The position numbers and the translations under genes are program-made. From Clostridiales bacterium (GTDB lineage Bacteria; Bacillota; Clostridia; Peptostreptococcales; Anaerovoracaceae), in contig WRJK01000008.1 in assembly GCA_009782285.1 (NCBI GenBank), positions 1-49,064 of the forward strand: a stretch of DNA of 49,064 nt. The letters run 5' to 3'. The notes beneath the pieces were generated by a model, which had not been told where the DNA came from, made no database searches, and was given only the letters and a program-made list of their open reading frames with translations. Shown here one piece after another: positions 2,882-42,428 of this stretch (position 1 is its first letter; the number at the start of each line of letters is the position of its first letter).

Positions 2882-2948
2882 CATGCGCTAATATTTAACA
2901 CAATTGTCATTATTAAAACCTGCTCGCATGTGTTAATATAGTACTGTT

Positions 2949-3965
2949 ATGAAGAACATATTCACGAAGAAAAACAAGCAATTCAAATACGAAAGCAAGA
3001 TGCGAATGTTCATCAAGACCTTTGTGATGACTTTCACGCTGATCCTCATCGTTGTGACGCCTGTCCTTGCTACGGTGACGAAGATCGGCGACCTCAACCC
3101 CGGAGGCCGGGAGGCTCCTGTCATTGAAGAGGAGCTGGATTTTCTGATTTCCTCCGACAGCCCGTTCTTCGACGCTTTCACTTATTCCAAAAGAGTCAAC
3201 ATACTGGCGCTTGGGGTAAACGAGAACGAGGGCCTTACAGACACGATCATGCTCGCCAGCTTAGACATCGAAAACAAGCACTTGGACCTGATATGGATTC
3301 CCCGAGACACGTACTACTACAGGGAAGGGTACAAGAGCTCCGACTTGGCCCAATTCAAGATCAATGCCGCATACCGCAAAAATCCGCTAAATTCAGCCAA
3401 GGCTGTTTCAGAGGTGCTTATGGGCATCCCGATCAATTACTACGCAGTGTTGAGCTACGACGGCGTCGCGAGGATTGTGGACTCGATGCGCGGCGTGCCG
3501 ATGGACATACCGTTCCACATGAAGTACGACGACCCCCTCGACAAGCCGCCGCTGCACGTGAACATACCAAAAGGGGAGCAGGTCCTTGACGGGGATCACG
3601 CCATACAGTTCTTGAGGTACAGGTCAGGATACGCAGACGCAGACCTTGGCCGGATCAAGGCGCAGCAGCAGTTCATGAAAAACGCGTTCAAGCAATGCCT
3701 GAGCTTCGAATTGCCCAACATCGCAAGAACCGTTTTCAACAACGTCACCTCTGACATCAATCTCAGGACAGCGCTTTATTTGGCGGGCAAAGCGGTAGGG
3801 ATCAGCAGCGATGACATCACTACCTACATGATGCCTGTAGGTAAAGTGGACCACTATGTGCACCCCGACGTGGAGAAGATTTCGGAGATGCTTGAAGAAA
3901 TCTACTCTATTGGCCAACATGCTGAAGAAGAAGCCGAAGAAGGAGAAGGTTCAGAAGCTCATTGA
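2949..3965 (+). CDS. LytR-CpsA-Psr (LCP) family cell-envelope phosphotransferase
   Basis: N-terminal TM segment, then an LCP core (NILALGVNENEGLTDTIMLASLDIENKHLDLIWIPRDTYY; YAVLSYDGVARIVDSMRGV). Acidic C-terminal tail. Last 15 nt overlap the convergent gene 3951..5336. Confidence 0.75.
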   Translation: MKNIFTKKNKQFKYESKMRMFIKTFVMTFTLILIVVTPVLATVTKIGDLNPGGREAPVIEEELDFLISSDSPFFDAFTYSKRVNILALGVNENEGLTDTIMLASLDIENKHLDLIWIPRDTYYYREGYKSSDLAQFKINAAYRKNPLNSAKAVSEVLMGIPINYYAVLSYDGVARIVDSMRGVPMDIPFHMKYDDPLDKPPLHVNIPKGEQVLDGDHAIQFLRYRSGYADADLGRIKAQQQFMKNAFKQCLSFELPNIARTVFNNVTSDINLRTALYLAGKAVGISSDDITTYMMPVGKVDHYVHPDVEKISEMLEEIYSIGQHAEEEAEEGEGSEAH

Positions 3966-5336
3966 ATTTAAGAACCGGAGCAGCGCCTTGGCGGCGTTAA
4001 GCGGTTTGTCGCCGCTTGTGCACATCGATGCCGCGCTCAAGCCAGGGTTCCGGTTTTTAAGGACAGCCCATTCGCTTTCTTGCAGGCTTTTTTCTATTGC
4101 CGAAGCGTCGCCTAGGCCTTCTTCAAGCAGTGCGGACAATTCGCGGGCGAGCCCGTCGTCGTTTGACGTAACGGGCGAGATTTCGTTTTCGGTGCATGCC
4201 ATGCCTGAAAGCCAGCATATTGACTTGATGGTTTCTGCAAGATCTTCCGCTGTGTCAGCAGTCAAGCTTCTGGCATTGATGCCGGCTGAAAATATGCCTG
4301 TGTGGGTGGAAACAGTGCCAAGAGTGGAAACGGAAACAAGTGCGCCGTCTACGCCTGCCTGCCGCGCACCGTCGGGCGCCATGACAAGAAGGCTTGTGAT
4401 GCTGGCAAAGTCTTCTTCGGATATGACCTTGGCGGGAAGCGGGACTTCCGTGAACTCGTACGTCAAGCCCGGGTTCGCCTCTGCGCTGGTGTCCAGGTAT
4501 TTTTCGCGGGCAGCTGACACCCTCTCCGTGAACCGGCTTGAGTCGCCATCGCTTACCAGCACTGTCATAGTGGCAACGGAAGGTGGGGCGGTTATGGAGT
4601 TCCCGCCGTTGAGCGCCGCCAGTTCGAGCTTTACACCTGCTCCTTTTGCGCCGGAAACAATGCCAACAAGAGCTTTTATCGCGTTTGGCGCCGGGTTTTC
4701 CCCCTCTAAAAACCCAGAGTTTGAAACATCAAGGCCGTCGATGGTTATTTCATACGCGGTTTTGCATGTCGGGGCGACCCACCTGATTTTTCTCGTCAGG
4801 TAGTAATCAGAAATCCCTGCGCTGGCTGTCGTAATCGTGTTTTCCTTCTGGTTGTCGAGGTTGATGAGCCTGTCAGCCATCAGGTATTGCCCGTTTATTT
4901 TCTGCACACCCTGCATGTCCCCGGCTTTGTCGGCCGTCAGCAGCAGTTCCAAGGCACCGTGGTTTTCCGCGTTGGCGAGGACGAACAGTGCCGTCGCAAT
5001 GGATTTAGTGCGCTTTTCCACCTGATCCAAGGAAAGCGCACAGTGCAGTATCGTCGATTTTTCCTTTTCAAACCCGGCTGAGGCGCTTTTCGAAATTACG
5101 ACGTTGTCGTATGCATCTGAATACAAGGCATATTTATGGCTGCCAGCCCATTCAGACAGGTATTTCTTCACATCCGAAAGCGAGCCGGCTGCTTCCATGG
5201 TTTTCGACAAGTTCTTGTATTCGGACTGGAAGCTTTGGTTCACCCTGCTTCCGACAGCGACCTCGCGGGGGTCGTCGCTGAAGCCGATTGCAGCAATAAG
5301 GGATATGACGATTATAACTAACATGACCTTTTTCAT
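3951..5336 (-). CDS. secreted protein of unknown function; weak resemblance to M20C (PepD-like) dipeptidase fold with non-canonical metal ligands
   Basis: N-terminal signal peptide MKKVMLVIIVISLIAAIGFS with no lipobox Cys. Start has an RBS-like AAGGAA/GGTGA. Internal GALELLLTADKAGDMQG and LINLDNQKEN blocks recall PepD, but the HxDxV and EE motifs are not intact. Product uncertain. Confidence 0.5.
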   Translation of the reverse strand: MKKVMLVIIVISLIAAIGFSDDPREVAVGSRVNQSFQSEYKNLSKTMEAAGSLSDVKKYLSEWAGSHKYALYSDAYDNVVISKSASAGFEKEKSTILHCALSLDQVEKRTKSIATALFVLANAENHGALELLLTADKAGDMQGVQKINGQYLMADRLINLDNQKENTITTASAGISDYYLTRKIRWVAPTCKTAYEITIDGLDVSNSGFLEGENPAPNAIKALVGIVSGAKGAGVKLELAALNGGNSITAPPSVATMTVLVSDGDSSRFTERVSAAREKYLDTSAEANPGLTYEFTEVPLPAKVISEEDFASITSLLVMAPDGARQAGVDGALVSVSTLGTVSTHTGIFSAGINARSLTADTAEDLAETIKSICWLSGMACTENEISPVTSNDDGLARELSALLEEGLGDASAIEKSLQESEWAVLKNRNPGLSAASMCTSGDKPLNAAKALLRFLNSMSF

Positions 5337-5356
5337 CTTTTCACCATGAATTCCTT

Positions 5357-6529
5357 TTAGGCAGGCGTTCCGCTTGCGAAAGCCTTCTCAAGCAGGCCCA
5401 GGTAGTCCTCTTCGCTGACGTCGCGGCAATTGTCTGGCGTCGAGCCATTGACGAACGACGCCTCTGCCAGCCGGCCAAAATCGGCGCGGTCAACTCCAGG
5501 CACGTCTTTCAGCTGCGGGATGCCGATATCGTGAGCAAGCCGGCGCAGTTCCGCTACCAGCGCCGCAGATGCCGCCAGATCGTCGAGCCCCTCCACGGGC
5601 AGGCCGCATATTCTGGCTGCTTCGGCATGCTTGGCAGGGTTTGCCGGCACGTTGAATTCCGTCACAATGGGCAAAAATATGGAATTGGCCACCCCGTGCG
5701 GCGTGTCGTACAATCCCCCCAGCGCTTCTGCCAAGCAATGCACCGCTGCAACGTCTGCATGGGAAAAGGCCACGCCAGCCATTAGGGAGCCCAGCATCAT
5801 CTCGTCCCGGGCCTTTTTTGTCCCGTTTACCGCCGCTTCGCGCAGGTTCGGAAAGATGCGCCTCATCGCCTCTCTTGCCCACGCGTCCGAAAAGGGCGAC
5901 GCAGCTTTGCAGGTAAACGCTTCGATTGCGTGCACGAAAGCATCCATGCCGGTTGAGGCAGCAATCGCCGGCGGCAGGGAATAAGTAACCTGCGGATCGA
6001 CAATCGCCAGCCTTGGCGCCATTCTTATGTCCTTTATCGTCATTTTGAATTTGCGGCCAGTGTCAGTAATCACAGCAGAACGAGTCACTTCCGAGCCGGT
6101 GCCGGCTGTCGTCGGCACTGTGACCAGCGGAGTTACGGCGTTTTGCACTTTGCCGCGCCCTTCGTACTGCGCAAGCCGCCCTTCGTGGGTGTGCAGCATG
6201 GCTATTGCCTTGGCGGCGTCAAGCACTGAGCCGCCGCCCACGGCCAGGACAATGTCAGCGGCAAACTCCCTTATCAGCTCGCCTCCGGCTTCGCAGTCGG
6301 CGTCTTTCGGGTTGGGCTGGACCCGGTCGAAAAGCTCTGTTTCATATCCGTTTGATTTCAAACCGTCCAAGACAGGCTCGACAATTCCGGCCTGCATCAA
6401 GCCCGGGTCGGTCACTAGGAACACCCGCTTTCCTTCGACAGTGTTTTTTATCATTGAAGCTGCTTCGCATGCGATGCCGGCTTGAAACTCCACTTGCGTT
6501 GGCAAGGAAAAACTGTAACGCTCAAACAT
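5357..6529 (-). CDS. iron-containing (group III) alcohol dehydrogenase
   Basis: GGGSVLDAAKAIA NAD-binding motif and a conserved His cluster (HAIEAF, HCLAEALGG, TPHGVANS) typical of Fe-ADH/lactaldehyde reductase/1,3-propanediol dehydrogenase. Sits 20 nt upstream of 3951..5336 on the same strand. Confidence 0.85.
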   Translation of the reverse strand: MFERYSFSLPTQVEFQAGIACEAASMIKNTVEGKRVFLVTDPGLMQAGIVEPVLDGLKSNGYETELFDRVQPNPKDADCEAGGELIREFAADIVLAVGGGSVLDAAKAIAMLHTHEGRLAQYEGRGKVQNAVTPLVTVPTTAGTGSEVTRSAVITDTGRKFKMTIKDIRMAPRLAIVDPQVTYSLPPAIAASTGMDAFVHAIEAFTCKAASPFSDAWAREAMRRIFPNLREAAVNGTKKARDEMMLGSLMAGVAFSHADVAAVHCLAEALGGLYDTPHGVANSIFLPIVTEFNVPANPAKHAEAARICGLPVEGLDDLAASAALVAELRRLAHDIGIPQLKDVPGVDRADFGRLAEASFVNGSTPDNCRDVSEEDYLGLLEKAFASGTPA

Positions 6530-6723
6530 GTCATTTTCACCTTCCTTATCTCAATATGATTTTTGAATATTCACATATAGCGTATCACATGCGTTGAGAA
6601 GATTCAATGCAAATTTTTCGCTTTTTCAACGAAAATACAAAAATAAGGGGTTGCTGTGTGGTATAATAAGCTATTGTGTTGCTAAAACCGAGCAAAGCAA
6701 TCGGTGTAAGGAGGAAATCAAAA

Positions 6724-7482
6724 ATGGGCAACCTGAAGACGAAATTGAAGCAGAACGATTTGATAATTGGCACTTGGATTACAATTGCCAGCACCGCCGT
6801 CGCTGAAATACTGTGCCAAGCAGGCTTTGACTGGGTTGCGATTGACATGGAGCATTCGCCAATATCGTTTGCTGAAGCCCAAGAGCTGATAAGGACAATC
6901 GATCTTTGCGGGAAAGCGCCTGCGGTCAGGGTTGGCGAAAACAACGAGTACCAGATAAAGAACGTTCTTGACGCCGGCGCACGGGCGATCGTCGTGCCTA
7001 TGGTGAACAGCAAGGAAGAAGCGGAGGCGGCAGTCCGTGCAGTCAAATACCCTCCGGCAGGCAAGCGGGGCGTGGGGCTCGGCAGAGCGCAGAAGTACGG
7101 TTTTGGATTTGACGAGTACAGGGCTTGGAATGAACGGGAAAGCGTGGTTGTTGTTCAAATCGAGCATATAGACGCTGTACGCAACTTGGAGGGCATACTG
7201 GAGGTTGAGGGCATTGACGCAACTTTTGTCGGCCCCTACGACCTTTCAGGGTCGCTGGGCCAGCCCGGAAATTTCCACATGCCTGAATTCAAACAGGCGC
7301 TTGCAGAATACGAAACGCTCTCCAAGAAGCACAAAATGCCCATGGGGTACCATGTCGGATCACCGGATGCAAAGCTGGCGGAAAGCAAGGCAGCGTCGGG
7401 CTACAGGCTGTTGACAGTAAGCTCGGACGCCATGTTCATGGGGCAGAAATGCAGGGAAACGCTTGCAGGGATGCTATATTGA
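6724..7482 (+). CDS. HpcH/HpaI family 2-keto-3-deoxy-acid aldolase
   Basis: IGTWITIASTAVAEILCQAGFDWVAIDMEHSP...AVRVGENNEYQIKNVLDAGARAIVVPMVNSKEEAE matches the HpcH/HpaI aldolase fold. Start chosen at ATG 6724 after AGGAGGAAATCAAAA; the ORF track gives 6676. Confidence 0.8.
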   Translation: MGNLKTKLKQNDLIIGTWITIASTAVAEILCQAGFDWVAIDMEHSPISFAEAQELIRTIDLCGKAPAVRVGENNEYQIKNVLDAGARAIVVPMVNSKEEAEAAVRAVKYPPAGKRGVGLGRAQKYGFGFDEYRAWNERESVVVVQIEHIDAVRNLEGILEVEGIDATFVGPYDLSGSLGQPGNFHMPEFKQALAEYETLSKKHKMPMGYHVGSPDAKLAESKAASGYRLLTVSSDAMFMGQKCRETLAGMLY

Positions 7483-7499
7483 GAGCGGAGGGGATTGAA

Positions 7500-8045
7500 A
7501 TGGAATCAAGGAACATATTGCTGAGAAATACGCGTTTTGACGATTTTATACACTTTGCCGAATGGGAAAAGCAAAAACAGGTCACGGACTTTTTGAGCAT
7601 CGAAGAAGGCAGGTCGTATGAGGAGATTGTCAGGGAATCAATACTGCGGGAGTCGGACCCGTCCAAGCTTCAGTTCACAATCGTCCTGAAAGAGGAGGGC
7701 GAGCCAATAGGGAGGGTGTACATCAGCAGGATCGACCGCGAAGCGGATTCGCTGGACATCACGAGGATTTACATTGCCGACATGAAGCACAGGGGGCGGG
7801 GCTTTGGCGAGGAGGCCATGCTGCTAATCCTTGAATACAGTTTCATGGGCCTTCACATGGAGCGGGTCACCCTTGACCACTACACGGGGAATTCGGTCGC
7901 ATCGTCGCTTTACCTGAAATTGGGGTTCCAGTACGAAGGCGTGGCAAGGAACGCATGCAAAAAGGACGGAAAGTACTACGACCTTAATCTTATGTCCATG
8001 ACAAGGGCAGAGTACTTCGAAAAAGTCCATGTTAAGAAATACTAA
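7500..8045 (+). CDS. GNAT family N-acetyltransferase (RimJ/RimL-like)
   Basis: Acetyl-CoA binding pattern RGRGFGEEAMLLILEYSF and C-terminal YLKLGFQYEGVARN. Start ATG 7500 after GGAGGGG; the ORF track gives 7449. Confidence 0.7.
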   Translation: MESRNILLRNTRFDDFIHFAEWEKQKQVTDFLSIEEGRSYEEIVRESILRESDPSKLQFTIVLKEEGEPIGRVYISRIDREADSLDITRIYIADMKHRGRGFGEEAMLLILEYSFMGLHMERVTLDHYTGNSVASSLYLKLGFQYEGVARNACKKDGKYYDLNLMSMTRAEYFEKVHVKKY

Positions 8046-8231
8046 ACAGTAAAATTATTATGTAAATTTCGTAGTGCCGTATGTAGCATTAATAGCGATG
8101 TTTTCCTGCTTGTGCAGGAAATTTTGCGACTTGCAGGAAGGCTGCCTGCTTAAGTAACCAATAAAAATGCGTGTTAAAAACCAACTTGACAAGCAATGTA
8201 AAAAATAAATATGCAAAAAGTAAAAACCATA

Positions 8232-8260
8232 TTGACTGTTTCCCTCAGAAGACTTATAAT
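8232..8260 (+). promoter_or_regulatory. sigma-A type promoter for nrdDG (TTGACT-17 bp-TATAAT)
   Basis: Exact TTGACT at 8232-8237 and TATAAT at 8255-8260 with a 17 bp spacer, about 80 nt upstream of nrdD in an AT-rich intergenic region. Confidence 0.65.
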
Positions 8261-8271
8261 TTTTAATGCAC

Positions 8272-8287
8272 CTACAATATATAGTAT
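8272..8287. promoter_or_regulatory. candidate NrdR operator (NrdR box) overlapping the nrdD transcription start
   Basis: ctaCAATATATAGtat matches the core of the published NrdR-box palindrome acaCwAtATaTwGtgt at 10 of 10 core positions. It lies inside an imperfect palindrome CTACAATATATAG/TATATACATTGTAG. A second box is not clearly seen. Confidence 0.5.
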
Positions 8288-8340
8288 ATACATTGTAGGG
8301 CATTCAGGAAAAAGCACTATGATAAAACGTAGGGGGCATC

Positions 8341-10686
8341 ATGAAAGAAATAAAAGCTATAATCAAAAGAGACGGAAGGCGCACCAATTACAATATAGAC
8401 AAGATAGTAGGAGCCATTTTCAAAGCGGCCAAGGTTCTTGGAGGGACGGATATTGACACCGCAAGGTACCTTGCCAGGCAGGTCGAGGCGTACATCCTTG
8501 AAGTCATGCACAAAGACACGCCTACGGTGGAGGAGATACAGGACGCGGTCGAGAAAATCCTGATCGAAAACGGCCATGCTAGGACTGCAAAGGAGTTCAT
8601 CCTCTACCGTGCGGAGAGGACCCGCATTCGCGAGATGAACATGAGGCTCATGAAGATTTACGAGGACCTCACTTTCAAGGACGCAAGGGACAACGACATC
8701 AAGCGCGAAAACGCCAACATAGACGGCGACACGGCGATGGGCACGATGCTGAAGTACGGTTCGGAAGGTGCCAAGCAGTTCTACGAGATGTTCGTGTTGA
8801 AGCCGGAGCATTCGAAAGCCCACACCGAGGGCGACATCCACATACACGACATGGATTTCCTGACATTGACGACCACATGCTGCCAGATAGACATAGAAAA
8901 GCTGTTTAAAGGCGGTTTTTCGACCGGCCACGGGTTCCTCCGCGAGCCGAACGACATACAGAGCTACACCGCCCTCGCCTGCATAGCGATACAGTCCAAC
9001 CAGAACGACCAGCACGGCGGCCAGAGCATACCGAACTTCGACTACGGCATGGCAGCCGGCGTGAGGAAGACGTACAAGAAGCTGTACCGCACCAACCTTG
9101 GCAAATTGATGAACATGCTCTACGATGTCGAAGACGGCGTTGAAAAGGCGAAGGATATCGCAGACAAGCTGGAAAAGGAGAAGGGCCTTTGCCCGGCTAT
9201 GGGGTGCGGGAGCGGCTACTGCCAAGAAGAAGCGGAGCTGCTAAAAGAGTTCGTCAACGAAAAGGACATAGAAAAACTCCAAGCGGGGGCAAGGAAATAC
9301 GCCGACCAGGAGATAAGGAGGGCTACGTACCAAGCGATGGAAGCCTTCGTCCACAACCTGAACACCATGCATTCCCGCGCCGGCGCACAGATACCGTTTT
9401 CATCGATCAACTACGGGACGGACACGTCGCCCGAGGGCAGGCTGGTGATCGAAAACATCCTGCTTGCCACGGAGGCGGGACTTGGCAACGGGGAAACCGC
9501 AATTTTCCCCATACACATTTTCAAGGTCAAGGAAGGCGTGACATTCAACCCGGAAGACCCGAACTACGACCTGTTCAAGCTGGCATGCAGGGTTTCAGCC
9601 AAGAGGCTGTACCCGAACTTCTCGTTCATCGACGCGCCTTACAACCTGAAATTCTACGTTCCGGGGGACGTGGACACGGAGGTCGCCTACATGGGGTGCA
9701 GGACGAGGGTCATAGCCAACGTCCACGACGCGGATAGGCAAGTTGTCGGCGGCCGGGGGAACCTGAGCTTTACGTCGATAAACCTGCCGCGTATAGCGAT
9801 TAACGCCAACGGCAACACCGATTTGTTCTTCGACGAGCTGGACAGGAAGATCACGCTGGTGATCGACCAGCTTCTGGAAAGGTACGAGATACAGGCGTCG
9901 AAAAAAGTCAAAAACTTCCCGTTCCTGATGGGCCAGGGGATTTGGATGGATGCGGACAAACTGGGGCCCGAGGATTCGGTTGGCGAGATTTTGAAGCACG
10001 GGACTTTGACGATGGGCTTCATAGGCCTAGCAGAATGCCTCAAATGCCTCATAGGGAGCCACCACGGGGAAACCCAGGAGGCTCAGAACCTAGGGCTCAA
10101 CATCATAGGGTACATGAGGAAAAGGCTTGACGAAGCCGCTGCGGAAAAGGGGTTTAATTTCACCTTGATTGCAACTCCGGCTGAAGGGCTTGCCGGGAGG
10201 TTCGTCCGGATTGACAAGAAGAAGTACGGAACCATTGATGGCGTGACCGACAAGGAGTACTACACCAATTCCTTCCACATACCTGTATACTACAATATTT
10301 CCGCTTTCGAAAAGATAAGGCTGGAGGCGCCTTACCACGCATTGACCAACGCGGGGCACATTACCTACGTTGAGCTTGACGGCGACCCCTGCAAAAATCT
10401 CGACGCCTTTGAGAAAATCGTCCGGTTCATGAAGGAGTCTGGGGTGGGCTACGGCTCGATAAACCATCCGGTGGACAGGGACCCCGTTTGCGGCTACACG
10501 GGCGTCATCGACAACGAATGCCCGTCCTGCCACAGGAAAGAGGAGGACGACGGCATCAAGTTCGAGAGGATCAGGAGGATAACGGGCTATCTTGTGGGCA
10601 CTGTGGACCGTTTCAACAACGCAAAGAGGTACGAGGAGAAGGACAGGGTGAAGCACACGGTTGCGCTGGAGACGGAAGCGATATGA
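8341..10686 (+). CDS. nrdD: anaerobic ribonucleoside-triphosphate reductase (class III RNR)
   Basis: N-terminal ATP-cone (MKEIKAIIKRDGRRTNYNIDKIV), C-terminal Zn-ribbon CPSCH and glycyl-radical motif RRITGYLVGTVDRFNNAK; 781 aa. Confidence 0.9.
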   Translation: MKEIKAIIKRDGRRTNYNIDKIVGAIFKAAKVLGGTDIDTARYLARQVEAYILEVMHKDTPTVEEIQDAVEKILIENGHARTAKEFILYRAERTRIREMNMRLMKIYEDLTFKDARDNDIKRENANIDGDTAMGTMLKYGSEGAKQFYEMFVLKPEHSKAHTEGDIHIHDMDFLTLTTTCCQIDIEKLFKGGFSTGHGFLREPNDIQSYTALACIAIQSNQNDQHGGQSIPNFDYGMAAGVRKTYKKLYRTNLGKLMNMLYDVEDGVEKAKDIADKLEKEKGLCPAMGCGSGYCQEEAELLKEFVNEKDIEKLQAGARKYADQEIRRATYQAMEAFVHNLNTMHSRAGAQIPFSSINYGTDTSPEGRLVIENILLATEAGLGNGETAIFPIHIFKVKEGVTFNPEDPNYDLFKLACRVSAKRLYPNFSFIDAPYNLKFYVPGDVDTEVAYMGCRTRVIANVHDADRQVVGGRGNLSFTSINLPRIAINANGNTDLFFDELDRKITLVIDQLLERYEIQASKKVKNFPFLMGQGIWMDADKLGPEDSVGEILKHGTLTMGFIGLAECLKCLIGSHHGETQEAQNLGLNIIGYMRKRLDEAAAEKGFNFTLIATPAEGLAGRFVRIDKKKYGTIDGVTDKEYYTNSFHIPVYYNISAFEKIRLEAPYHALTNAGHITYVELDGDPCKNLDAFEKIVRFMKESGVGYGSINHPVDRDPVCGYTGVIDNECPSCHRKEEDDGIKFERIRRITGYLVGTVDRFNNAKRYEEKDRVKHTVALETEAI

Positions 10687-11204
10687 GCGCAAAGCCTGGC
10701 ATCATAAGGGTTGCGGGCTTAGTCCGGGAGTCCATCGTCGACGGACCCGGCATAAGGTTTGTCGTGTTCGCTCAGGGCTGCCCTCATAGGTGTGAAGGCT
10801 GCCACAACGAGGCTGCCCTTGATTTTTCCGGCGGCTATGAACTGGAAACAGGGAAAATCATGCTTGAGATCGAAAAGAACCCGCTGCTCTCCGGGGTCAC
10901 CTTCAGCGGCGGGGAGCCCTTCTGCCAGCCGGAAGGGTTTTTGCGTCTTGCACGGAAACTGAAAGAGAAAAACACCCACATCATTTCCTATTCGGGGTAC
11001 TCCTTTGAGGATCTCGAGGCGCTGGCTGAACAGGATGAGGACGTCAAAGAACTGCTGGGCAGGATTGACATACTGATAGACGGGCGGTTCGCCATCGAAG
11101 AGCGGGACTTGGCCCTCCAGTTCAAAGGGAGCGCGAACCAGCGGTACATCGACATGAACGCCACTAGGGAGAGCGGGGGGCTGGTGGTGCTGGACAGTTT
11201 GTAG
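10683..11204 (+). CDS. nrdG: anaerobic ribonucleotide reductase activating protein (radical SAM)
   Basis: MSAKPGIIRVAGLVRESIVDGPGIRFVVFAQGCPHRCEGCHN carries the CxxxCxxC-type cluster. ATG 10683 overlaps the nrdD stop (ATATGA). The ORF track start 10488 lies inside nrdD and was rejected. Confidence 0.85.
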   Translation: MSAKPGIIRVAGLVRESIVDGPGIRFVVFAQGCPHRCEGCHNEAALDFSGGYELETGKIMLEIEKNPLLSGVTFSGGEPFCQPEGFLRLARKLKEKNTHIISYSGYSFEDLEALAEQDEDVKELLGRIDILIDGRFAIEERDLALQFKGSANQRYIDMNATRESGGLVVLDSL

Positions 11205-11208
11205 AGAA

Positions 11209-11406
11209 TTATACCACAGTACGGCTGTTCTCGCCTGATTTAACCTGATCACCGCAGACAGGCGTAATCCCATGCTGTTTTAGCATGGGTTCTGTTTGTG
11301 CCTTGATATGCGCTGTTAATTCCGAAGGCGACATATTTTTCGTTTCCTCAAAGAGCGATATGCGGATTGCATTTAAGTCTTTTTCAATCGTGTTTGGGCT
11401 CTTCAT
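11209..11406 (-). CDS. small hypothetical protein (65 aa), possibly ribbon-helix-helix-like
   Basis: Strong RBS (GGAGGT, 8 nt spacer) upstream of ATG at 11406. Predicted beta strand IRISL followed by helices. However, the C-terminal part overlaps a perfect 8 bp hairpin (11268-11290) that could instead be the nrdDG terminator. Confidence 0.4.
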   Translation of the reverse strand: MKSPNTIEKDLNAIRISLFEETKNMSPSELTAHIKAQTEPMLKQHGITPVCGDQVKSGENSRTVV

Positions 11407-11757
11407 TTTCCAATACCTCCATTGGCGTACATATTATTACAGTCTTATAACCCTCCCGCAAACAGAAGCACAGGCGATATGAGTACTGTCAAATCTATAT
11501 TTTGCCGGAATGATGCCCTCATGTACATTATATGCTGAAAGTATAATCAAATCAATACAGAACAGCAAATCTTAAAACCCAATTATCCTGCTCTTTTCAA
11601 GCACTGACTGCCGCGAAAATTTGATGCAAAATATTGTAAAACAGGCAGATGCATGATATCATAAAATGTCAAGCAATTAGAGGCAATCTATCGAAAATTC
11701 ATGTAGCGATAATGGTAATGTAAAGTGATTTGCTGAACAGAGCAGGAAGGTTGAGAC

Positions 11758-12468
11758 ATGAAAACATCCAGTATGATATTTGCGGCTGCTTCAGCATTAG
11801 CGATCCTGATTTTTTCAGGATGCGGACAGGTTGGTGAACAAACTCCAAGCGACAGCCGAGCTTCAAGCGACAGCATTTGTCTAATCAAGAATTATACTAC
11901 CGAAATACCGAGGACTATGTGGCCGGTGTTGGACGAAGGAAGATTCATTAGCTTTGAAATAGTTTCCGAAGGGGATGACGATGCCTATACTATTGGGTAT
12001 TCGACGATTATTAACGGCGTCAAAACCGACCATGCTTTGTTTTCAGACGACCGGCAACAATTGGAACGATGGGAGGGGACGGTCGGGTATTCATTTTTGA
12101 TGACAGGAAAGTTCTTTCGTGGCGATGTAACGCTGAACTATGGGAGTTATAAGGATTCGGCAACTAAAAGCAGAAATGCATTAATGCTTGAAATACCAGG
12201 GCGGCAGGATTGGAAAGGCGTGTCTTTCGCGACAAGAATGGAGGGGTTTGGCAGTGAACTGAACAAAGGAGAAGGCTGTATCCTTGCTTATTACTGGGGT
12301 TGGTTCAGTGATGAGGAACCCCCTCTCGATGACGGCGCCAGCACAAGGCTTTTTGAATATAAGACAGTTGACGAGTTTGCACAAGACCCTGACATACGAA
12401 GGTTATCCTTTTGTTTGGTTTATTACATCGAAAACAGTATGGAGGTCGGTCATGAAAGACAATTATGA
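11758..12468 (+). CDS. lipoprotein of unknown function
   Basis: Signal peptide with lipobox MIFAAASALAILIFSGC. No recognisable catalytic motifs. Lower GC than the core genes. Confidence 0.6.
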   Translation: MKTSSMIFAAASALAILIFSGCGQVGEQTPSDSRASSDSICLIKNYTTEIPRTMWPVLDEGRFISFEIVSEGDDDAYTIGYSTIINGVKTDHALFSDDRQQLERWEGTVGYSFLMTGKFFRGDVTLNYGSYKDSATKSRNALMLEIPGRQDWKGVSFATRMEGFGSELNKGEGCILAYYWGWFSDEEPPLDDGASTRLFEYKTVDEFAQDPDIRRLSFCLVYYIENSMEVGHERQL

Positions 12469-12565
12469 TTTTTCAACAGAGGACAGCAATGAAGAAAAAT
12501 CTAATGAAAAATATGCGAACGTGGTGCGGGAGAGTTTACAGGAATATAAGGTCAACACGCCATAA
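12452..12565 (+). CDS. small acidic ORF (37 aa), doubtful
   Basis: ATG 12452 preceded by GGAGG, overlaps the lipoprotein stop. Contains copy A of the 44 bp direct repeat. No homology recognised. Confidence 0.2.
   Translation: MKDNYDFSTEDSNEEKSNEKYANVVRESLQEYKVNTP
12486..12529. repeat. 44 bp direct repeat, copy A
   Basis: gcaatgaagaaaaatctaatgaaaaatatgcgaacgtggtgcgg, about 40 of 44 identical to copy B at 13178..13221. The two copies bracket the toxin-remnant/antitoxin pair. Confidence 0.7.
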
Positions 12566-12584
12566 AAGCAGCAAATTCTGCGAT

Positions 12585-12731
12585 TTACGATTGAAATAGA
12601 TCCGAATGAGTACCCGTGCGCGAAGCGGTTAGCACGATGCTTTTTCCGTCAATAAAATAAACGAGAAGCCAATCTGGAAGGATATGACATTCCCGAAACC
12701 CAGCATAGTCACCCGTTAATGCGTGGTCATG
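12585..12731 (-). pseudogene. YafQ/RelE-family toxin remnant (C-terminal half only, no start codon)
   Basis: Minus-strand translation HALTGDYAGFRECHILPDWLLVYFIDGKSIVLTASRTGTHSDLFQS* aligns with the C-terminal half of E. coli YafQ (HPLQGSWKGYRDAHVEPDWILIYKLTDKLLRFERTGTHAALFG). The frame runs without a Met into the antitoxin stop, so about 45 N-terminal residues are missing. Confidence 0.6.
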
Positions 12732-12745
12732 GTGTTTCGACACGC

Positions 12746-13039
12746 TCAATCCTCCATATCCTCTAAGCCTAATTCCTCAACCATCTCCTTGACAGAAGCA
12801 TAGGACTTTGTTTGTATCCTACCGCTTGCAATATCCCGCGCTTCCTTCATTGCAGCTAATGTCTCATTGTTGTATTTCGGCAAAGTCATATCGAAAGGCA
12901 ACCCGCCGACAATTATTACCTTATGCAAAAAAATATTTACAGCGTCTGCTACGGTTAGCCCGAAATGAGAAAAGATTCCGTCAACAGTTGATTTCACATC
13001 AGGTTCAACACGAATATTTATGTTTGCTGTTTTAGCCAT
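12746..13039 (-). CDS. DinJ/RelB-family type II antitoxin
   Basis: MAKTANINIRVEPDVKSTVDGIFSHFGLTVADAVNIFLHKVIIVGGLPFDM matches DinJ (MAANAFVRARIDEDLKNQAADVLAGMGLTISDLVRITLTKVAREKALPFDL). Looks full length at 97 aa. Confidence 0.8.
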   Translation of the reverse strand: MAKTANINIRVEPDVKSTVDGIFSHFGLTVADAVNIFLHKVIIVGGLPFDMTLPKYNNETLAAMKEARDIASGRIQTKSYASVKEMVEELGLEDMED

Positions 13040-13177
13040 ATCAAATCACCTCATTTTTAGTATGCACTATTTCGGAAGCGAATGCAATACAAACGCAACC
13101 ATTTTGGAAATATATTTTCACAGTTTTTCAAAAAACGATTAACCTCCGGTGCCGTCCAAAGCTCAAGTCGAGCTGTG

Positions 13178-13221
13178 GCAATGAAGAAAATTCTTATGAA
13201 AAAAATGCGAACGTGGTCGGC
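13178..13221. repeat. 44 bp direct repeat, copy B
   Basis: gcaatgaagaaaattcttatgaaaaaaatgcgaacgtggtcggc. It sits in a different reading frame from copy A, so the duplication is at DNA level rather than a conserved protein. Confidence 0.7.
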
Positions 13222-13342
13222 TTTTTGCGTTGTCATAGTTTTGGTCTCTCGTAGCTATGGTCTCCAGACGGAGGATTTTCATGTGAGTATTCATGTTTTT
13301 TCAATTAAAGTGAATTGTTTTGAATTGTATCTTGAATACTAT

Positions 13343-13370
13343 TGACTTATAAAATCAAGGTAAGTATAAT
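13343..13370 (+). promoter_or_regulatory. consensus-like promoter upstream of the NTPase gene
   Basis: TTGACT (13343-13348), 16 bp spacer, TATAAT (13365-13370) inside a strongly AT-rich leader. Confidence 0.5.
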
Positions 13371-13441
13371 ATCTATTATCTATGTATATTGTAATATTAA
13401 AGTTTGATGAGCAATGCTTTTTGAAACGGGGGATAATTCAA

Positions 13442-15298
13442 ATGGATAATGATCGGAAATTCATTCAAAATGGCAAATATTTGATTGAAGAGGCTAATCT
13501 AGATACAATGCAGAGCATCGACAACTATGAAGATTTTTCATTACAGTACATAGGTAGCCCTGATGCAAAGAGAGAATGGGACAAAAATCCAGAACTTACA
13601 GGTGATATGTTTATTCACACAAGAGCATATCACGCTTTCAAGGATGAAGACAATTTAATTTTGCTTGGAAGAACAGGCACTGGAAAAACGGCGATACTTC
13701 GGTGTCTCGAATGGGAAGTTAGACATAATTCTTCAGATTTTGGAATGGCATATAACATCGCAGTTATGATTGAAGCAGAACAATTCCTAAAAGTTTTAGC
13801 ATTGTATGAAATGTTAGATACAAATAGCACTGCGGCGAACCTTCAAATTTCTGAAGCATTACGGCGGATAGTTTATCTGTCCATCATGGAAAAAATACTT
13901 GATAGCTGTGAAAAGCCAACTCAATATCAGGCGATTTATCGTTTCTTAACATCAGCACACGAGTTGAGAGGGAATTTGAAATACACTAAAAGCCAACAAG
14001 CCAGGGATAAAGCTAGTATTTTTGCGCAAGCAGAGATACTCGGTACTGCGACAGAATTTGGTACAATTTTAAAAGATGTGCAGACTGTCACACGTCTTTT
14101 CGATATTTTGTACGCGACAAATTATGAAGCCGCAAGAGAGGAATGTAAAGGATACCTCAACAATAAAAAAGTGCTTGTTCTCATTGATACATTTGAAACA
14201 TATGATTTGTCGAATGCGAAAATGATACAAATAATACGAAACCTTCTTGAGGTTTGTTTTGAGTTTTATAATAATCCAACAAAAAATATATTCGTCAAAA
14301 TTGCCTTACCAATTGAGATTTACAATAGGGTTCTTTATGGGCTGCCACCAAAAAAATCTTCAAACACTGTCGTTATAAGATGGACAAATAGAGAACTGCT
14401 TGCCATGGTTGCATTGAGAATTGTGGCAGGCTATCAGCAAGGTAAGCTGAAAGGAGTGCTCGAAGATCAGGGGAGGGAAATTCTTTTTGATTATTGTGAG
14501 CAGTTTTCATTAAGTGACTTTTACGCAGATAGAGAGAAAGGGATCAGTGTGGCATATGAAAACGCTCGAAATCTATTACAAAACATATTACCAAAAGAAT
14601 GTGTAACAAGATGTGCTTATTCATGTGATGCAATACTCTATTGCATGAAACACACATTGAAAAAACCAAGAGAGCTAATGAAGATGTTTGATGGTTTTAT
14701 TTCTCAAATTATTAAAAACAATAACCGCGATTACTATAAAATAAATAACGGGGAAAACATACGAGATACTGTTCATGCCATGGAAGAATATATGATCAGA
14801 TCTGCATTAAGCGTGTATGAAGATTCTTACCGAGGATTGGGAATAGCATGTGACGAGTTTTTTACTGACGCCGTATTTGTTTTTGAAAAAAACACACCAA
14901 TAGTAAATAAGCTCAAGGCAGCTATCGTTAAGGCAAAAGAAGCAAATTGGAGACACTTAACGCCGGCAGAACAGCATACTGTTGAGTCATTGTTGGATGA
15001 GACAACTTTTATATCAGTCTTAATGGAAAGTGGCTTGATTGGAGAGATTAACTCAAAAAAAATCCAAGTTAACGAAAAATTCTTCGACGCGAATGAACCT
15101 ACATGCACTATTATTGCTGATTTTGAATTTAAAATAACAAGACCAAACAATTATCAGTTATTTGCAGGTAGACAATATGTTATACATCCAATGTGTTATG
15201 AATACTATTCGTGTAAAGTGGACCGGAATACATTTGTTTATCTCGAAAAAGGAAAACGCGAGGCACCCATTTATCACTCCCAGTTGATAGATCTCTAA
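13442..15298 (+). CDS. P-loop NTPase of unassigned family with a Cys-rich C-terminal region; candidate defence or abortive-infection ATPase
   Basis: Walker A LLGRTGTGKTAIL preceded by a beta strand. Candidate Walker B KKVLVLIDTFETYD about 170 aa later. C-terminal CVTRCAYSCDAILYCMKH and HPMCYEYYSCK Cys clusters. Very AT-rich codon usage, unlike its flanks. Start taken at ATG 13442 with GGGGGA RBS; the ORF track starts at 13382 (near-leaderless alternative). Confidence 0.75.
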   Translation: MDNDRKFIQNGKYLIEEANLDTMQSIDNYEDFSLQYIGSPDAKREWDKNPELTGDMFIHTRAYHAFKDEDNLILLGRTGTGKTAILRCLEWEVRHNSSDFGMAYNIAVMIEAEQFLKVLALYEMLDTNSTAANLQISEALRRIVYLSIMEKILDSCEKPTQYQAIYRFLTSAHELRGNLKYTKSQQARDKASIFAQAEILGTATEFGTILKDVQTVTRLFDILYATNYEAAREECKGYLNNKKVLVLIDTFETYDLSNAKMIQIIRNLLEVCFEFYNNPTKNIFVKIALPIEIYNRVLYGLPPKKSSNTVVIRWTNRELLAMVALRIVAGYQQGKLKGVLEDQGREILFDYCEQFSLSDFYADREKGISVAYENARNLLQNILPKECVTRCAYSCDAILYCMKHTLKKPRELMKMFDGFISQIIKNNNRDYYKINNGENIRDTVHAMEEYMIRSALSVYEDSYRGLGIACDEFFTDAVFVFEKNTPIVNKLKAAIVKAKEANWRHLTPAEQHTVESLLDETTFISVLMESGLIGEINSKKIQVNEKFFDANEPTCTIIADFEFKITRPNNYQLFAGRQYVIHPMCYEYYSCKVDRNTFVYLEKGKREAPIYHSQLIDL

Positions 15299-15315
15299 AG
15301 ATATCTAAAAAAACA

Positions 15316-15346
15316 CTTGAACTCCCACCCCTTCTTATGGTACAAT
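15316..15346 (+). promoter_or_regulatory. rpmB promoter with extended -10
   Basis: TTGAAC (15316-15321) and TGgTACAAT (15338-15346). Confidence 0.5.
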
Positions 15347-15422
15347 ATTTATCGTGCTTGAATCGACACGAAATAAGCAATTACAGCGAAAGAGCGATTT
15401 GATAGAAGGAGGTGCGGCAGGC

Positions 15423-15617
15423 ATGTCAAGAAGGTGCGAGGTGTGCGGGAAAGGGCAGGTTTCAGGGAACAACGTGTCCCATTCCAACAGGCATACGAGA
15501 AGGAAGTGGAATGCGAACATCCAGACGGTCAAGGTTACCGAGAACGGGACTACGAGAAGGGTAAAGATGTGCACGAGGTGCATACGCTCGGGCAGGAAGG
15601 TTAGCGGTGCCAACTAA
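15423..15617 (+). CDS. rpmB: 50S ribosomal protein L28
   Basis: MSRRCEVCGKGQVSGNNVSHSNRHTRRKWNANIQTVKV...RVKMCTRCIRSGRKV is canonical L28. ATG 15423 after GGAGG; the ORF track start 15354 was rejected. Confidence 0.9.
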   Translation: MSRRCEVCGKGQVSGNNVSHSNRHTRRKWNANIQTVKVTENGTTRRVKMCTRCIRSGRKVSGAN

Positions 15618-15709
15618 TGACGGATGAGGCCAGGTAATCAATCTTGGTCTTATTTTTTATTGTGTCAGAAGCCACGTTTTTATTCTTAAGCGGAAGAGGG
15701 GCGGCAGTT

Positions 15710-16102
15710 TTGATATACAGGGTGGAGACTCCCACTGGAAGCATATCTTTTTCAAAAAACATCATAGGCAGGATCGTGCTTGAGGCTGTCCTGCAGTTTG
15801 GCGGCAAGGTGATGGTTTCAAACCACAAAGGGAAAACCGTTGGGCTGTCGCAGAAGCGCGGAGGCCTCGACGCCATTGGCACCATGGACATAACCATGGG
15901 AGCAAAGGGCCTTGACCTTCGGATTTACGTCGTGATACGTTTTGGCACCAGCATAGGCATGGTGACGGACAGGCTCATCGAAGGCATTTACATGCGCACC
16001 AAGGAACTGACAGGGCTTGCGCCGAACAGCGTTGCAATCGTGGTCACAGGGATGATTTCAAAGCAGCAGATGGCGCGAAGGAACATCGAGGTAATAAAAT
16101 AA
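15710..16102 (+). CDS. Asp23/Gls24 (alkaline shock protein, DUF322) family protein
   Basis: GSISFSKNIIGRIVLEAVLQFGG...LAPNSVAIVVTGM pattern. TTG start at 15710 after AAGAGGGG chosen over the in-frame upstream ATG 15644. Same position as yloU in Bacillus (rpmB-asp23-recG). Confidence 0.7.
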   Translation: MIYRVETPTGSISFSKNIIGRIVLEAVLQFGGKVMVSNHKGKTVGLSQKRGGLDAIGTMDITMGAKGLDLRIYVVIRFGTSIGMVTDRLIEGIYMRTKELTGLAPNSVAIVVTGMISKQQMARRNIEVIK

Positions 16103-36186: not shown

Positions 36187-37514
<1,328 letters not shown>

Positions 37515-37521
<7 letters not shown>

Positions 37522-38273: not shown

Positions 38274-38424
38274 TATTAGCGCCTCCTTTGAATATATTAT
38301 TAAATATACCATTAAACAATATCTTTAGTCAAATTATATATTATGGAAAAATATGGCTTTGTGCAAAAACTGCCACTAGTTGAACAAAATGTGATATAAT
38401 ATTTGCTGAAAGGTGGGATTTGGT

Positions 38425-42258: not shown

Positions 42259-42428
42259 CTACCAACTACAAACTACCAACTACCAACTACCAACTCCCCA
42301 CTACAAACTAACAACTACCAACTCCCCACTACAAACTACCAACTACCAACTCCCCACTACCAACTAAAAACTACCAACTACAAACTAAAAACTACCAACT
42401 ACAAACTACAAACTACCAACTACAAAAG
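42254..42428. repeat. heptanucleotide tandem array, 25 units of AC[CA]AACT (variants CCCCACT, AAAAACT, AACAACT), G-free on the plus strand
   Basis: ACTAACT ACCAACT ACAAACT ACCAACT ... ACAAACT ACCAACT ACAAAAG. It fills the entire spacer from the stop codon of 41437..42258 to the AAAAGGAGG RBS of 42441..42755. Confidence 0.9.

What the first reader, a model, noticed from the sequence alone, without database searches (positions are those of the whole stretch)
11205..15420. Low-GC accessory island inserted between nrdG and rpmB
Base composition shifts sharply over about 4.2 kb between two GC-rich core operons (nrdDG and rpmB-asp23-recG). The island is visibly AT-rich, most extreme across 13040-15300 (roughly one third GC by eye against well over half in the flanks). 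It holds only non-housekeeping content: a small RBS-bearing ORF, an orphan lipoprotein, a decayed toxin with an intact DinJ antitoxin, 44 bp direct repeats, and a large AT-rich P-loop NTPase with its own consensus promoter. This is the typical signature of a horizontally acquired defence or addiction islet. No integrase is present, so any mobility is old or was driven in trans.
Basis: partly seen in the sequence, partly recalled or inferred. Interest (0 to 1): 0.7.

Follow-up and report, generated by a model that had tools for sequence, protein, structure and literature searches.

The report
Acquired toxin-antitoxin and ATPase islet
A 4.1 kb AT-rich stretch was inserted between two housekeeping genes that sit side by side in every relative examined; it carries three broken toxin-antitoxin modules, an orphan lipoprotein gene and one intact, uncharacterised ATPase that is probably an anti-phage or anti-plasmid gene, which makes it an ordinary kind of accessory islet with one interesting passenger.

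Summary
GC is 0.386 over 11205-15420 against 0.527 in the rest of the window. GC3 is 0.32-0.47 in the island genes and 0.60-0.75 in the core genes. The lowest-GC 4.2 kb window of the contig starts at 11201.

In 22 distinct related contigs (NrdG 55-73% identical), nrdG and rpmB lie 80-350 nt apart and no island gene is present. The region is therefore an insertion. The native rpmB promoter and leader are conserved, which places the right edge near 15300 rather than 15420.

Contents:
- A decayed PIN-like gene with an intact 65-aa partner (dN/dS 0.15).
- An orphan lipoprotein gene fused to a brnT/brnA remnant.
- A 5'-deleted yafQ with intact dinJ, flanked by 40-nt direct repeats.
- A standalone 618-aa ATPase with its own promoter.

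A conspecific contig swaps in brnT-brnA at position 12790, so the islet is polymorphic. A defence role for the ATPase is inferred, not shown. The islet is a new member of a known kind.

The parts
10683..11204 (+). nrdG (anaerobic ribonucleotide reductase activase); left core flank
   Evidence: Pfam Fer4_12 at 5e-35 and Radical_SAM. GC3 0.72. Syntenic in all relatives.
11209..11406 (-). orf65: intact 65-aa gene. It is the downstream partner of a PIN-like gene in other genomes and is a putative orphan antitoxin or regulator.
   Evidence: 13 homologues at 65-82% identity, all 63-66 aa apart from one 94-aa entry. In L027 and L028 it overlaps the end of a 156-aa gene. dN/dS is 0.15 against L027. 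A GGAGG ribosome-binding site lies upstream. No family match.
11402..11526 (-). Decayed remnant of the 156-aa PIN-like gene (putative toxin). Only residues 88-111 and 137-156 remain, in two frames.
   Evidence: tblastn of the L027 156-aa protein gives 83% and 90% identity for the two fragments. The frames are broken. The full-length relative has a weak Pfam PIN match: 19.9 bits, below the 23.6 cut-off.
11758..12468 (+). 236-aa lipoprotein-like ORFan (signal peptide with the lipobox ...LIFSG|C). Its last 12 codons are read out of frame from a brnT-3'/brnA-5' junction.
   Evidence: Only itself was found among 5.8 billion proteins. No family match. The 43 nt at 12433-12475 are 97.7% identical to the brnT end and brnA start in L002.
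12452..12565 (+). 37-aa ORF that starts like brnA (MKDNYDFS) and then diverges. It is a remnant of a brnTA module.
   Evidence: Comparison with the L002 brnT-brnA junction. BrnT in L002 matches Pfam BrnT_toxin at 1e-28.
12486..12525 (.). Direct repeat, copy 1 (downstream of yafQ')
   Evidence: 37 of 40 nt identical to copy 2; no match in 100 shuffles.
12585..12749 (-). yafQ/relE toxin fragment lacking about 40 N-terminal codons
   Evidence: Pfam YafQ_toxin at 2e-20, but profile positions 41-88 of 88 only. TIGR02385 positions 39-88 of 88. The conspecific contig L002 has an extra indel and three substitutions here.
12746..13039 (-). Intact dinJ/relB antitoxin (97 aa), now an orphan
   Evidence: TIGR02384 RelB_DinJ at 69.7 bits (cut-off 45.65), full length. 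Pfam RelB at 2e-14. The same protein is encoded on L025 and L026.
13178..13217 (.). Direct repeat, copy 2 (upstream of dinJ)
13342..13370 (+). Sigma-70-type promoter of the ATPase gene (TTGACT-17-TATAAT)
   Evidence: Matches 11 of 12 consensus positions; the best site in the region.
13442..15298 (+). Standalone Sll1717-family P-loop ATPase (618 aa from the ATG at 13442, which has a GGGGGA ribosome-binding site). Gene callers start it at 13382, giving 638 aa.
15308..15422 (+). Native rpmB promoter (TTGAAC-18-TACAAT, 15317-15346), 5' leader hairpin and ribosome-binding site. This is not part of the insert.
   Evidence: The same layout (A-run, -35, -10, short hairpin, AAGGAGGTGCGG) is seen in L004-L008. 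Promoter scan.
15423..15617 (+). rpmB (ribosomal protein L28); right core flank
   Evidence: Pfam Ribosomal_L28 at 3e-21. GC3 0.74.

Best explanation
The stretch from about 11205 to about 15300 is horizontally acquired accessory DNA. It accumulated, in more than one event, in the short spacer between nrdG and the rpmB promoter.

It is a small addiction/defence islet made of four parts:
1. A PIN-like gene destroyed by deletion, whose 65-aa partner survives under purifying selection.
2. A lipoprotein ORFan fused to the last bases of a brnT-brnA module.
3. A dinJ-yafQ module whose toxin lost its first ~40 codons while the antitoxin stayed intact. The module is bracketed by 40-nt direct repeats.
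4. An intact, separately promoted 618-aa ATPase, which is the most AT-rich and probably the youngest part.

The ATPase is the only likely active cargo. It has an ORC/Cdc6-STAND-type nucleotide-binding core, followed by a helical bundle, a winged-helix-like region and a small C-terminal domain with an invariant HPxCY motif. The inferred mechanism is that it works alone as an ATP-driven switch. It would recognise a phage or plasmid component (nucleic acid or protein) through its C-terminal half, oligomerise, and then block the invader or the cell.

The orphan antitoxins may persist as anti-addiction or regulatory genes.

What is shown: the insertion, its composition, gene decay, family membership, fold, and the neighbourhoods of homologues. 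What is inferred: the defence role, the trigger, the output, and how the DNA got in.
For: Insertion: 22 distinct relatives have nrdG and rpmB 80-350 nt apart and no island gene.

Foreign composition: GC 0.386 against 0.527, and GC3 0.32-0.47 against 0.60-0.75. There are two compositional layers, 0.42-0.46 to the left of about 12800 and 0.34-0.37 to the right.

Both junctions are real. Left junction: contigs L002 and L003. Right junction: contigs L001 and L025. Each pair comes from two separate samples.

Ongoing turnover: the conspecific contig L002 is 99.75% identical up to 12790 and then carries brnT-brnA instead. The window's arrangement (L025) is present in the same sample.

Toxin decay with the partner retained, seen twice.

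ATPase evidence:
- NF047389 at 122 bits, above the cut-off of 75.
- Strongly conserved motifs across 43 homologues.
- The C-terminal half gives only weak winged-helix and NB-ARC-WHD hits.
- The family has 242 clusters at E<=1e-30, and nearly all members are standalone proteins of 540-620 aa.
- Homologues lie next to PIN/Phd toxin-antitoxin pairs and AbiH (L014), TIR proteins, YobI and nSTAND5 (L011), AbiLi/PDC-M38 and HepT-MNT (L020), an AriA-like ATPase (L021), AAA_15-RloB and an integrase (L056), and an integrase with a rolling-circle Rep (L010).
- Rare relatives carry an N-terminal DUF4062 (E 4e-19) or a nuclease-like HSDR_N_2 domain. DUF4062 is a TIR-like NADase anti-phage effector (bioRxiv 10.64898/2026.05.01.722283 and 10.64898/2026.06.25.731849).
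Against: - No known defence model matches the ATPase. PADLOC's best hit is E 2e-4 over 90 residues, and DS41_1 scores 15 bits against a cut-off of 370.
- No enzymatic effector domain is recognisable in this protein.
- No homologue was found in 50,697 phage or 72,556 plasmid records, or in IMG/VR. Mobility of the family is therefore documented only by patchy context.
- No integrase, att-like terminal repeats or tRNA mark the island, and no empty site was found in the same species. The mode and date of insertion remain unknown.
- Six neighbourhoods are a small and non-random sample.
Confidence: 0.8

Rival explanations
1. The ATPase is not an immune gene. It would instead be a maintenance, replication or partition factor (an ORC/Cdc6- or TnsC/MuB-like DNA-binding ATPase) left behind by a decayed integrative element, and the toxin-antitoxin modules would be that element's addiction genes.
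For: The best fold matches include the initiators Cdc6/Orc1 and DnaA and the transposition ATPases TnsC and MuB. The homologue in L010 lies 2 kb from an integrase and a rolling-circle Rep. In L056 an integrase is 1.4 kb away, and in L014 the gene sits next to a tubulin-type partition module.
Against: No partner is conserved (no Rep, transposase or integrase) across the six loci. In L011, L020 and L021 the neighbours are defence genes, not replication genes. Fusions to DUF4062 and to a nuclease-like domain fit an effector-switch logic, not replication. No family member was found in plasmid or phage collections.
Confidence: 0.15
2. The low-GC stretch is native, non-essential DNA that drifted towards AT or was lost in the relatives, not an acquisition.
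For: No same-species empty site was recovered. The relatives examined are distant (NrdG at most 76% identical).
Against: All 22 distinct relatives, spanning GC 0.32-0.58, lack it. Their spacers align with the window's rpmB promoter and leader, so this explanation would need many independent precise losses. The intact ATPase has GC3 0.315 while keeping 38 invariant residues, so this is not decay. Homologues of orf65 and of the ATPase sit in unrelated contexts elsewhere.
Confidence: 0.03
3. The island is an assembly or binning chimera in a metagenome-assembled contig.
For: The window is a MAG contig. Short-read assemblies break inside the island at about 11429, 12790 and 13014. The middle join rests on a 167-nt overlap between L002 and L025.
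Against: The nrdG-island junction is present in L002 (ENA) and L003 (Logan). The island-rpmB-asp23 junction is present in L001 (Logan) and L025 (ENA). These are independent assemblies of two samples at 99.4-100% identity. The breaks coincide with a real strain polymorphism.
Confidence: 0.02

Closest known systems
NCBIfam NF047389, 'P-loop ATPase, Sll1717 family'
   Same: The ATPase scores 122 bits (cut-off 75) over profile positions 1-441 of 454. It is a member by the curated criterion.
   Different: The family has a name only. No paper in the searched library mentions Sll1717, and no relative has a solved structure. The window protein is at most 38% identical to any other member found.
ORC/Cdc6-clade AAA+ ATPases used in defence (BrxC and BrxD of BREX) and the archaeal ATPases SSO1545 and PAB2304
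   Different: Only about 250 residues align, at 10-14% identity. BrxC is 1200-1300 aa and works within a six-gene system, whereas this protein is 618 aa and has no conserved partner. There is no sequence-level relation.
STAND-type single-protein immune sensors (Avs, bNACHT, NLR-like)
   Different: This protein has no effector domain and no repeat-type sensor (TPR, LRR or WD40). Pfam nSTAND3 is only 16.8 bits, below the 27.2 cut-off.
DUF4062 (TIR-like NADase) defence proteins Swarozyc and Evangelion
   Same: A distant family member (P0186) fuses DUF4062 to this ATPase module.
   Different: As described, Swarozyc and Evangelion pair DUF4062 with a domain-less auxiliary region, not an ATPase. The window protein has no DUF4062.
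DinJ-YafQ (RelB/RelE superfamily) and BrnT-BrnA type II toxin-antitoxin systems
   Same: dinJ is a full-length match. The yafQ fragment and the brnT/brnA junction are recognisable.
   Different: Both toxins are destroyed in the window. Only the antitoxin dinJ and a 37-aa brnA-like stub remain.
Defence/accessory hotspots between conserved core genes
   Same: Variable cargo sits at a fixed intergenic site, with atypical GC, toxin-antitoxin and defence-type genes, and strain-level replacement.
   Different: It is very small (4.1 kb), has no mobility gene, and the hotspot is documented in only one species-level lineage. A relative (L044) has an unrelated 5.2 kb insertion one gene further on.

Membership tests
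Genomic island (horizontally acquired) | Composition differs from the host genome | tested here: met
   GC 0.386 against 0.527, and GC3 0.32-0.47 against 0.60-0.75. It is the lowest-GC 4.2 kb window of the contig.
Genomic island (horizontally acquired) | Absent from the same locus in relatives | tested here: met
   22 distinct related loci have nrdG and rpmB 80-350 nt apart and no island protein. No same-species empty site is available.
Genomic island (horizontally acquired) | Mobility genes, a tRNA target or terminal att-like repeats | tested here: not met
   No integrase or transposase domain in any island ORF. No tRNA nearby. No repeats at the two edges.
NCBIfam NF047389 Sll1717-family P-loop ATPase | Score above the curated cut-off over most of the profile | tested here: met
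   122 bits against a cut-off of 75; profile positions 1-441 of 454.
Pfam PF24389 ORC-CDC6-like | Score above the gathering threshold | tested here: inconclusive
   27.8 bits against 27, covering only profile positions 18-175 of 571.
AAA+ ATPase, ORC/Cdc6-STAND clade | Walker A and Walker B motifs and the core fold | tested here: met
AAA+ ATPase, ORC/Cdc6-STAND clade | C-terminal winged-helix DNA-binding domain | tested here: inconclusive
AAA+ ATPase, ORC/Cdc6-STAND clade | ATP hydrolysis and nucleotide-dependent oligomerisation | not testable with these tools
   Needs biochemistry.
STAND immune sensors (Avs/bNACHT type) | Tripartite layout: effector domain, NTPase, repeat or sensor domain | tested here: not met
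   No effector or repeat domain in this protein. N-terminal effectors occur only in rare distant relatives.
Known anti-phage defence systems (PADLOC-DB v2; NCBIfam antiphage models) | Significant full-length match to a system protein | tested here: not met
   Best PADLOC hit is PDC-M28C at E 2e-4 over 93 residues. DS41_1 scores 15 bits against a cut-off of 370.
Defence gene by association | Homologues recurrently next to known defence genes | tested here: met
   Five of six loci have Abi, TIR, AriA-like or toxin-antitoxin genes within about 5 kb. The sixth has an integrase and a Rep. The sample is small and no background control was run.
Type II toxin-antitoxin DinJ-YafQ | Full-length RelB/DinJ antitoxin | tested here: met
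   TIGR02384 at 69.7 bits (cut-off 45.65), positions 1-85 of 85.
Type II toxin-antitoxin DinJ-YafQ | Full-length YafQ/RelE toxin | tested here: not met
   Only profile positions 41-88 of 88 are present, and the fragment abuts the dinJ stop codon.
Type II toxin-antitoxin BrnT-BrnA | Intact toxin and antitoxin genes | tested here: not met
   The window keeps only 43 nt of the brnT-end/brnA-start junction. An intact brnT is present in the variant contig L002.
PIN-domain toxin plus small partner | PIN domain in the upstream gene | tested here: inconclusive
   The full-length relative scores 19.9 bits, below the 23.6 cut-off. In the window the gene is fragmented.
Bacterial lipoprotein | Signal peptide ending in a lipobox cysteine | tested here: met
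   MKTSSMIFAAASALAILIFSG|C was read directly from the sequence. It fits the PROSITE lipobox pattern as recalled from memory. No predictor was run.

The most novel reading that the evidence does not exclude
The Sll1717-family ATPase would be a previously unrecognised single-gene anti-phage or anti-plasmid system. In this reading the ORC/Cdc6-STAND-like ATPase, the winged-helix region and the HPxCY C-terminal module both sense the invader and deliver the output, for example by clamping or occluding invader DNA, without any canonical effector domain. The DUF4062- and nuclease-fused relatives would be its effector-armed versions.
Probability: 0.35. Interest if true: 0.55.

Novelty: new member of a known kind. 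Interest (0 to 1): 0.35.

Why it matters
The islet itself is an ordinary example of accessory DNA piling up at an intergenic hotspot. It does show, in unusual detail for 4 kb, how toxins are lost while their partners persist, and how modules are swapped between strains.

The useful lead is the ATPase. Its family has about 240 clusters (50% identity) with strong matches, carries a database name, and has no literature, no solved structure and no hit in current defence catalogues. Its fold, genomic company and rare effector fusions all point to immunity. It is short, stands alone and has its own promoter, so it is easy to test.

Tried and rejected
- PADLOC, PHROGs, Pfam and NCBIfam scans of orf65, the lipoprotein ORF and the 37-aa ORF gave nothing.
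- Rfam found no RNA family in the island.
- Sequence searches of the ATPase and its profile against PDB chains found only local P-loop matches, with best E 0.016.
- tblastn of the ATPase against plasmid and phage records found no match.
- The IMG/VR pattern scan found no relative.
- Foldseek against viral structures gave no hit at E<=0.001.
- The afdb50 fold library was unavailable.
- A scan of JGI metagenome contigs for the 40-nt repeat found nothing. Even the JGI contig L026, which contains the repeat, was not returned, so that collection evidently lacks it.
- The exact-protein look-up for L28 was not on record.
- Literature searches for 'Sll1717' and 'PF24389' found no papers.
- I considered that dinJ and the divergently transcribed ATPase form a functional pair. 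I rejected this because no homologue of the ATPase has a RelB/DinJ neighbour.
- I considered attC-like or target-site-duplication origins for the 40-nt repeats and could find no support for either.

Full report
**Observation**

A sliding GC profile shows one deep trough in the 49 kb window. 1-kb windows from 11001 to 15500 are 0.35-0.44 GC, against about 0.50-0.58 elsewhere.
- Measured directly, 11205-15420 is 0.386 GC and the rest of the window is 0.527.
- 500-nt windows between 12951 and 14951 are 0.34-0.38.
- Third-position GC separates island genes (orf65 0.47, lipoprotein ORF 0.45, dinJ 0.40, ATPase 0.315) from core genes (nrdD 0.75, nrdG 0.72, rpmB 0.74, asp23 0.65, recG 0.67, rsmD 0.65, coaD 0.60).

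**Is it an insertion?**

I searched representative genomes and JGI metagenomes with NrdG.
- Five genome loci (two Aminipila MAGs and three Bacillota MAGs, NrdG 57-60% identical) keep the order GNAT-nrdD-nrdG-rpmB-asp23-recG-rsmD-coaD.
- Eighteen metagenome contigs (NrdG 56-73% identical, GC 0.36-0.58) in which both genes are visible keep the same order. One of them, L046, is the same contig as L006, so there are 22 distinct loci in total.
- nrdG and rpmB are 80-350 nt apart in every case.
- None has a tblastn match to orf65, the lipoprotein, DinJ, the YafQ fragment or the ATPase.
- The spacers of the relatives share a recognisable layout with the last ~115 nt before rpmB in the window: an A-run, a -35 box, a -10 box, a short hairpin and AAGGAGGTGCGG. 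The native rpmB promoter and leader therefore survive at about 15308-15422, and the foreign DNA ends right after the ATPase stop codon at 15298.
- On the left, the orf65 stop codon lies 4 nt after the nrdG stop codon.
- The limitation is that no closer relative was available. The best one, L029 (76% NrdG identity), ends 180 nt after nrdG. No same-species empty site was seen.

**Not an assembly artefact**

The window is a complete MAG contig. NCBI names it 'Clostridiales bacterium' with locus tags FWG42. Independent assemblies support both junctions.
- ENA contig L002 matches window 683-12790 at 99.75%, and Logan contig L003 matches 9475-11429. Both cross the nrdG-island junction.
- Logan contig L001 matches 13014-15738 at 100%, and ENA contig L025 matches 12624-15738 at 99.97%. 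Both cross the island-rpmB-asp23 junction.

**Anatomy: three decayed toxin-antitoxin modules**

(i) orf65 and a PIN-like remnant.
- orf65 (11209-11406, minus strand) is a real gene. It has 13 homologues at 65-82% identity, all 63-66 aa apart from one 94-aa entry.
- Its dN/dS is 0.15 against the copy in L027.
- In L027 and L028 it is the second gene of a pair and overlaps the end of a 156-aa gene. That gene has a weak, sub-threshold PIN match (19.9 bits, cut-off 23.6).
- In the window, only two fragments of that upstream gene remain (residues 88-111 and 137-156), at 11402-11526 and in different frames.

(ii) Lipoprotein ORF and a brnT/brnA remnant.
- The lipoprotein ORF (11758-12468) has a signal peptide and a lipobox cysteine. 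It has no homologue at all among 5.8 billion proteins.
- Its last 12 codons, together with the start of a 37-aa ORF (MKDNYDFS...), are 43 nt that are 97.7% identical to the brnT-end/brnA-start junction of an intact brnT-brnA module seen in L002.
- The lipoprotein gene was therefore joined to the tail of a brnTA module by a deletion.

(iii) dinJ and a truncated yafQ.
- dinJ (12746-13039, minus strand) is a full-length RelB/DinJ antitoxin.
- The adjoining yafQ covers only profile positions 41-88 of 88 and abuts the dinJ stop codon, so about 40 N-terminal codons were deleted.
- In L002 this fragment has an extra indel and three substitutions within 21 nt, as expected for a pseudogene.

The dinJ-yafQ' unit is bracketed by a direct repeat at 12486-12525 and 13178-13217. 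The copies share 37 of 40 nt, no match occurred in 100 shuffles, and weaker similarity extends upstream across a 37-nt indel. I could not establish what made this repeat.

**Polymorphism**

L002 comes from the same ENA sample as L025 and is identical to the window across the left part of the island. At window position 12790, 45 nt into the 3' end of dinJ, it departs into an intact brnT followed by the start of brnA. That tail has GC 0.37. Two arrangements therefore coexist in one sample, which means the islet is being remodelled now. The left part (GC 0.42-0.46) and the right part (0.34-0.37) also differ in composition, which argues for more than one acquisition.

**The ATPase: sequence and fold**

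- The ORF runs from 13382 to 15298. Homologues begin at the position of the ATG at 13442, which has a GGGGGA ribosome-binding site.
- A TTGACT-17-TATAAT promoter sits at 13342-13370.
- No terminator-like site separates the ATPase gene from the rpmB promoter.
- It matches NCBIfam NF047389, 'P-loop ATPase, Sll1717 family', at 122 bits (cut-off 75). It matches Pfam ORC-CDC6-like marginally and matches no PADLOC model convincingly.
- Its nearest relatives are only 28-38% identical.
- A profile search of 1.84 billion representative proteins finds 242 clusters at E<=1e-30 and 1335 at E<=1e-3. Nearly all of the 150 best hits listed are standalone proteins of 540-620 aa.
- Across 43 members, these are invariant: Walker A GRTGxGK, the Walker B aspartate in VLVLID-x3-E-x-D, a KPR motif, SGLxG, and a C-terminal HPxCY with a further near-invariant cysteine.
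- The AlphaFold model is confident (pLDDT 82, pTM 0.86).
- No relative has a solved structure at the sequence level.

**The ATPase: genomic company**

Six neighbourhoods of homologues were read.
- L010: 2 kb from an integrase and a rolling-circle Rep.
- L011: between two TIR-domain proteins (one ThsB-like by PADLOC), a YobI ATPase, an nSTAND5 protein and PDDEXK transposase-like genes.
- L014: next to two PIN toxin-antitoxin pairs and AbiH, on an element with tubulin, HNH and LexA-like genes.
- L020: 1.4 kb from an AbiLi/PDC-M38 pair and 2 kb from HepT-MNT.
- L021: near an AriA-like ATPase.
- L056: directly after an AAA_15-RloB pair and 1.4 kb from an integrase.

No partner gene is conserved, so the protein acts alone. 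Rare distant members carry N-terminal additions:
- DUF4062 (E 4e-19);
- a restriction-enzyme-like HSDR_N_2 domain, just below threshold;
- a zinc ribbon.

DUF4062 has recently been shown to be a TIR-like NADase effector of anti-phage systems (bioRxiv 10.64898/2026.05.01.722283 and 10.64898/2026.06.25.731849).

No homologue was found in the plasmid or phage collections or in IMG/VR.

**Mechanism**

Shown:
- an inserted, compositionally foreign, polymorphic islet;
- toxin genes destroyed while their partners are kept;
- one intact ATPase of the ORC/Cdc6-STAND type that keeps company with defence genes.

Inferred:
- The ATPase is a single-protein immune switch. It would bind a phage or plasmid cue through its winged-helix and C-terminal half, exchange or hydrolyse ATP, oligomerise, and interfere with the invader or the cell. 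In the armed relatives, an N-terminal NADase or nuclease would deliver the blow.
- The orphan DinJ and Orf65 may neutralise incoming cognate toxins or simply regulate their own promoters.
- How the DNA entered is unknown. There is no integrase, tRNA or terminal repeat, so recombination through the conserved flanks after transfer between related strains is the simplest idea.

**Verdict**

As a class, this is a familiar small accessory/defence islet. The part worth following up is the uncharacterised Sll1717-family ATPase. I put about 0.9 on 'acquired accessory islet' and about 0.5 on 'the ATPase is a defence gene'. The overall confidence of 0.8 refers to the composite explanation, with the mechanism explicitly marked as inferred.

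Noticed in passing
window 15340-15422; L004-L008 spacers: The rpmB 5' leader carries a short hairpin immediately after the -10 box in the window and in all five relatives. The stems differ in sequence, for example GTTCGAGTGCGAAC against TCGTG...CACGA. This may be a conserved 5' stem-loop or a regulatory leader for L28. Rfam reports nothing here.
   Followed up: partly
window 6107-6284 (Fe-ADH-like gene, 5357-6529, minus strand): 24 of the 30 differences between the window and the conspecific contig L002 cluster in 180 nt, mostly at 3-nt spacing. This looks like a short recombination tract in an otherwise identical 12 kb.
   Followed up: no
L044 736-5975: A relative has an unrelated 5.2 kb insertion one gene further on, between rpmB and asp23. 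It carries a 1248-aa hybrid sensor kinase and a double-receiver response regulator. This neighbourhood therefore tolerates insertions at more than one spacer.
   Followed up: partly
window 25314-25398 (minus strand) and 31609-31672 (plus strand): The two tRNA finders disagree. ARAGORN calls an unusually long 85-nt tRNA-Arg(GCG) at 25314-25398. Rfam calls only a 64-nt tRNA at 31609-31672 (40.4 bits). Neither tool confirms the other's call.
   Followed up: no
window 7500-9000, 32500-34000, 37500-38500, 42000-43000: There are shallower GC dips (0.44-0.47) elsewhere in the contig. The first covers the long AT-rich leader upstream of nrdD (8046-8340), where Rfam finds no riboswitch.
   Followed up: no
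L027 10407-20198: The intact PIN-like/orf65 pair in a related metagenome contig lies between a WXG100/DUF4176/YwqH-like (type VII secretion toxin-immunity) cluster and a run of large genes: an FHA protein, a 781-aa PAPS_reduct-domain protein and a 1386-aa protein. That run may be another conflict system.
   Followed up: no
window 11269-11289: The only terminator-like hairpin downstream of nrdG (CCCATGCTGTTTTAGCATGGG followed by a T-run) lies inside the coding sequence of the convergent orf65.
   Followed up: no
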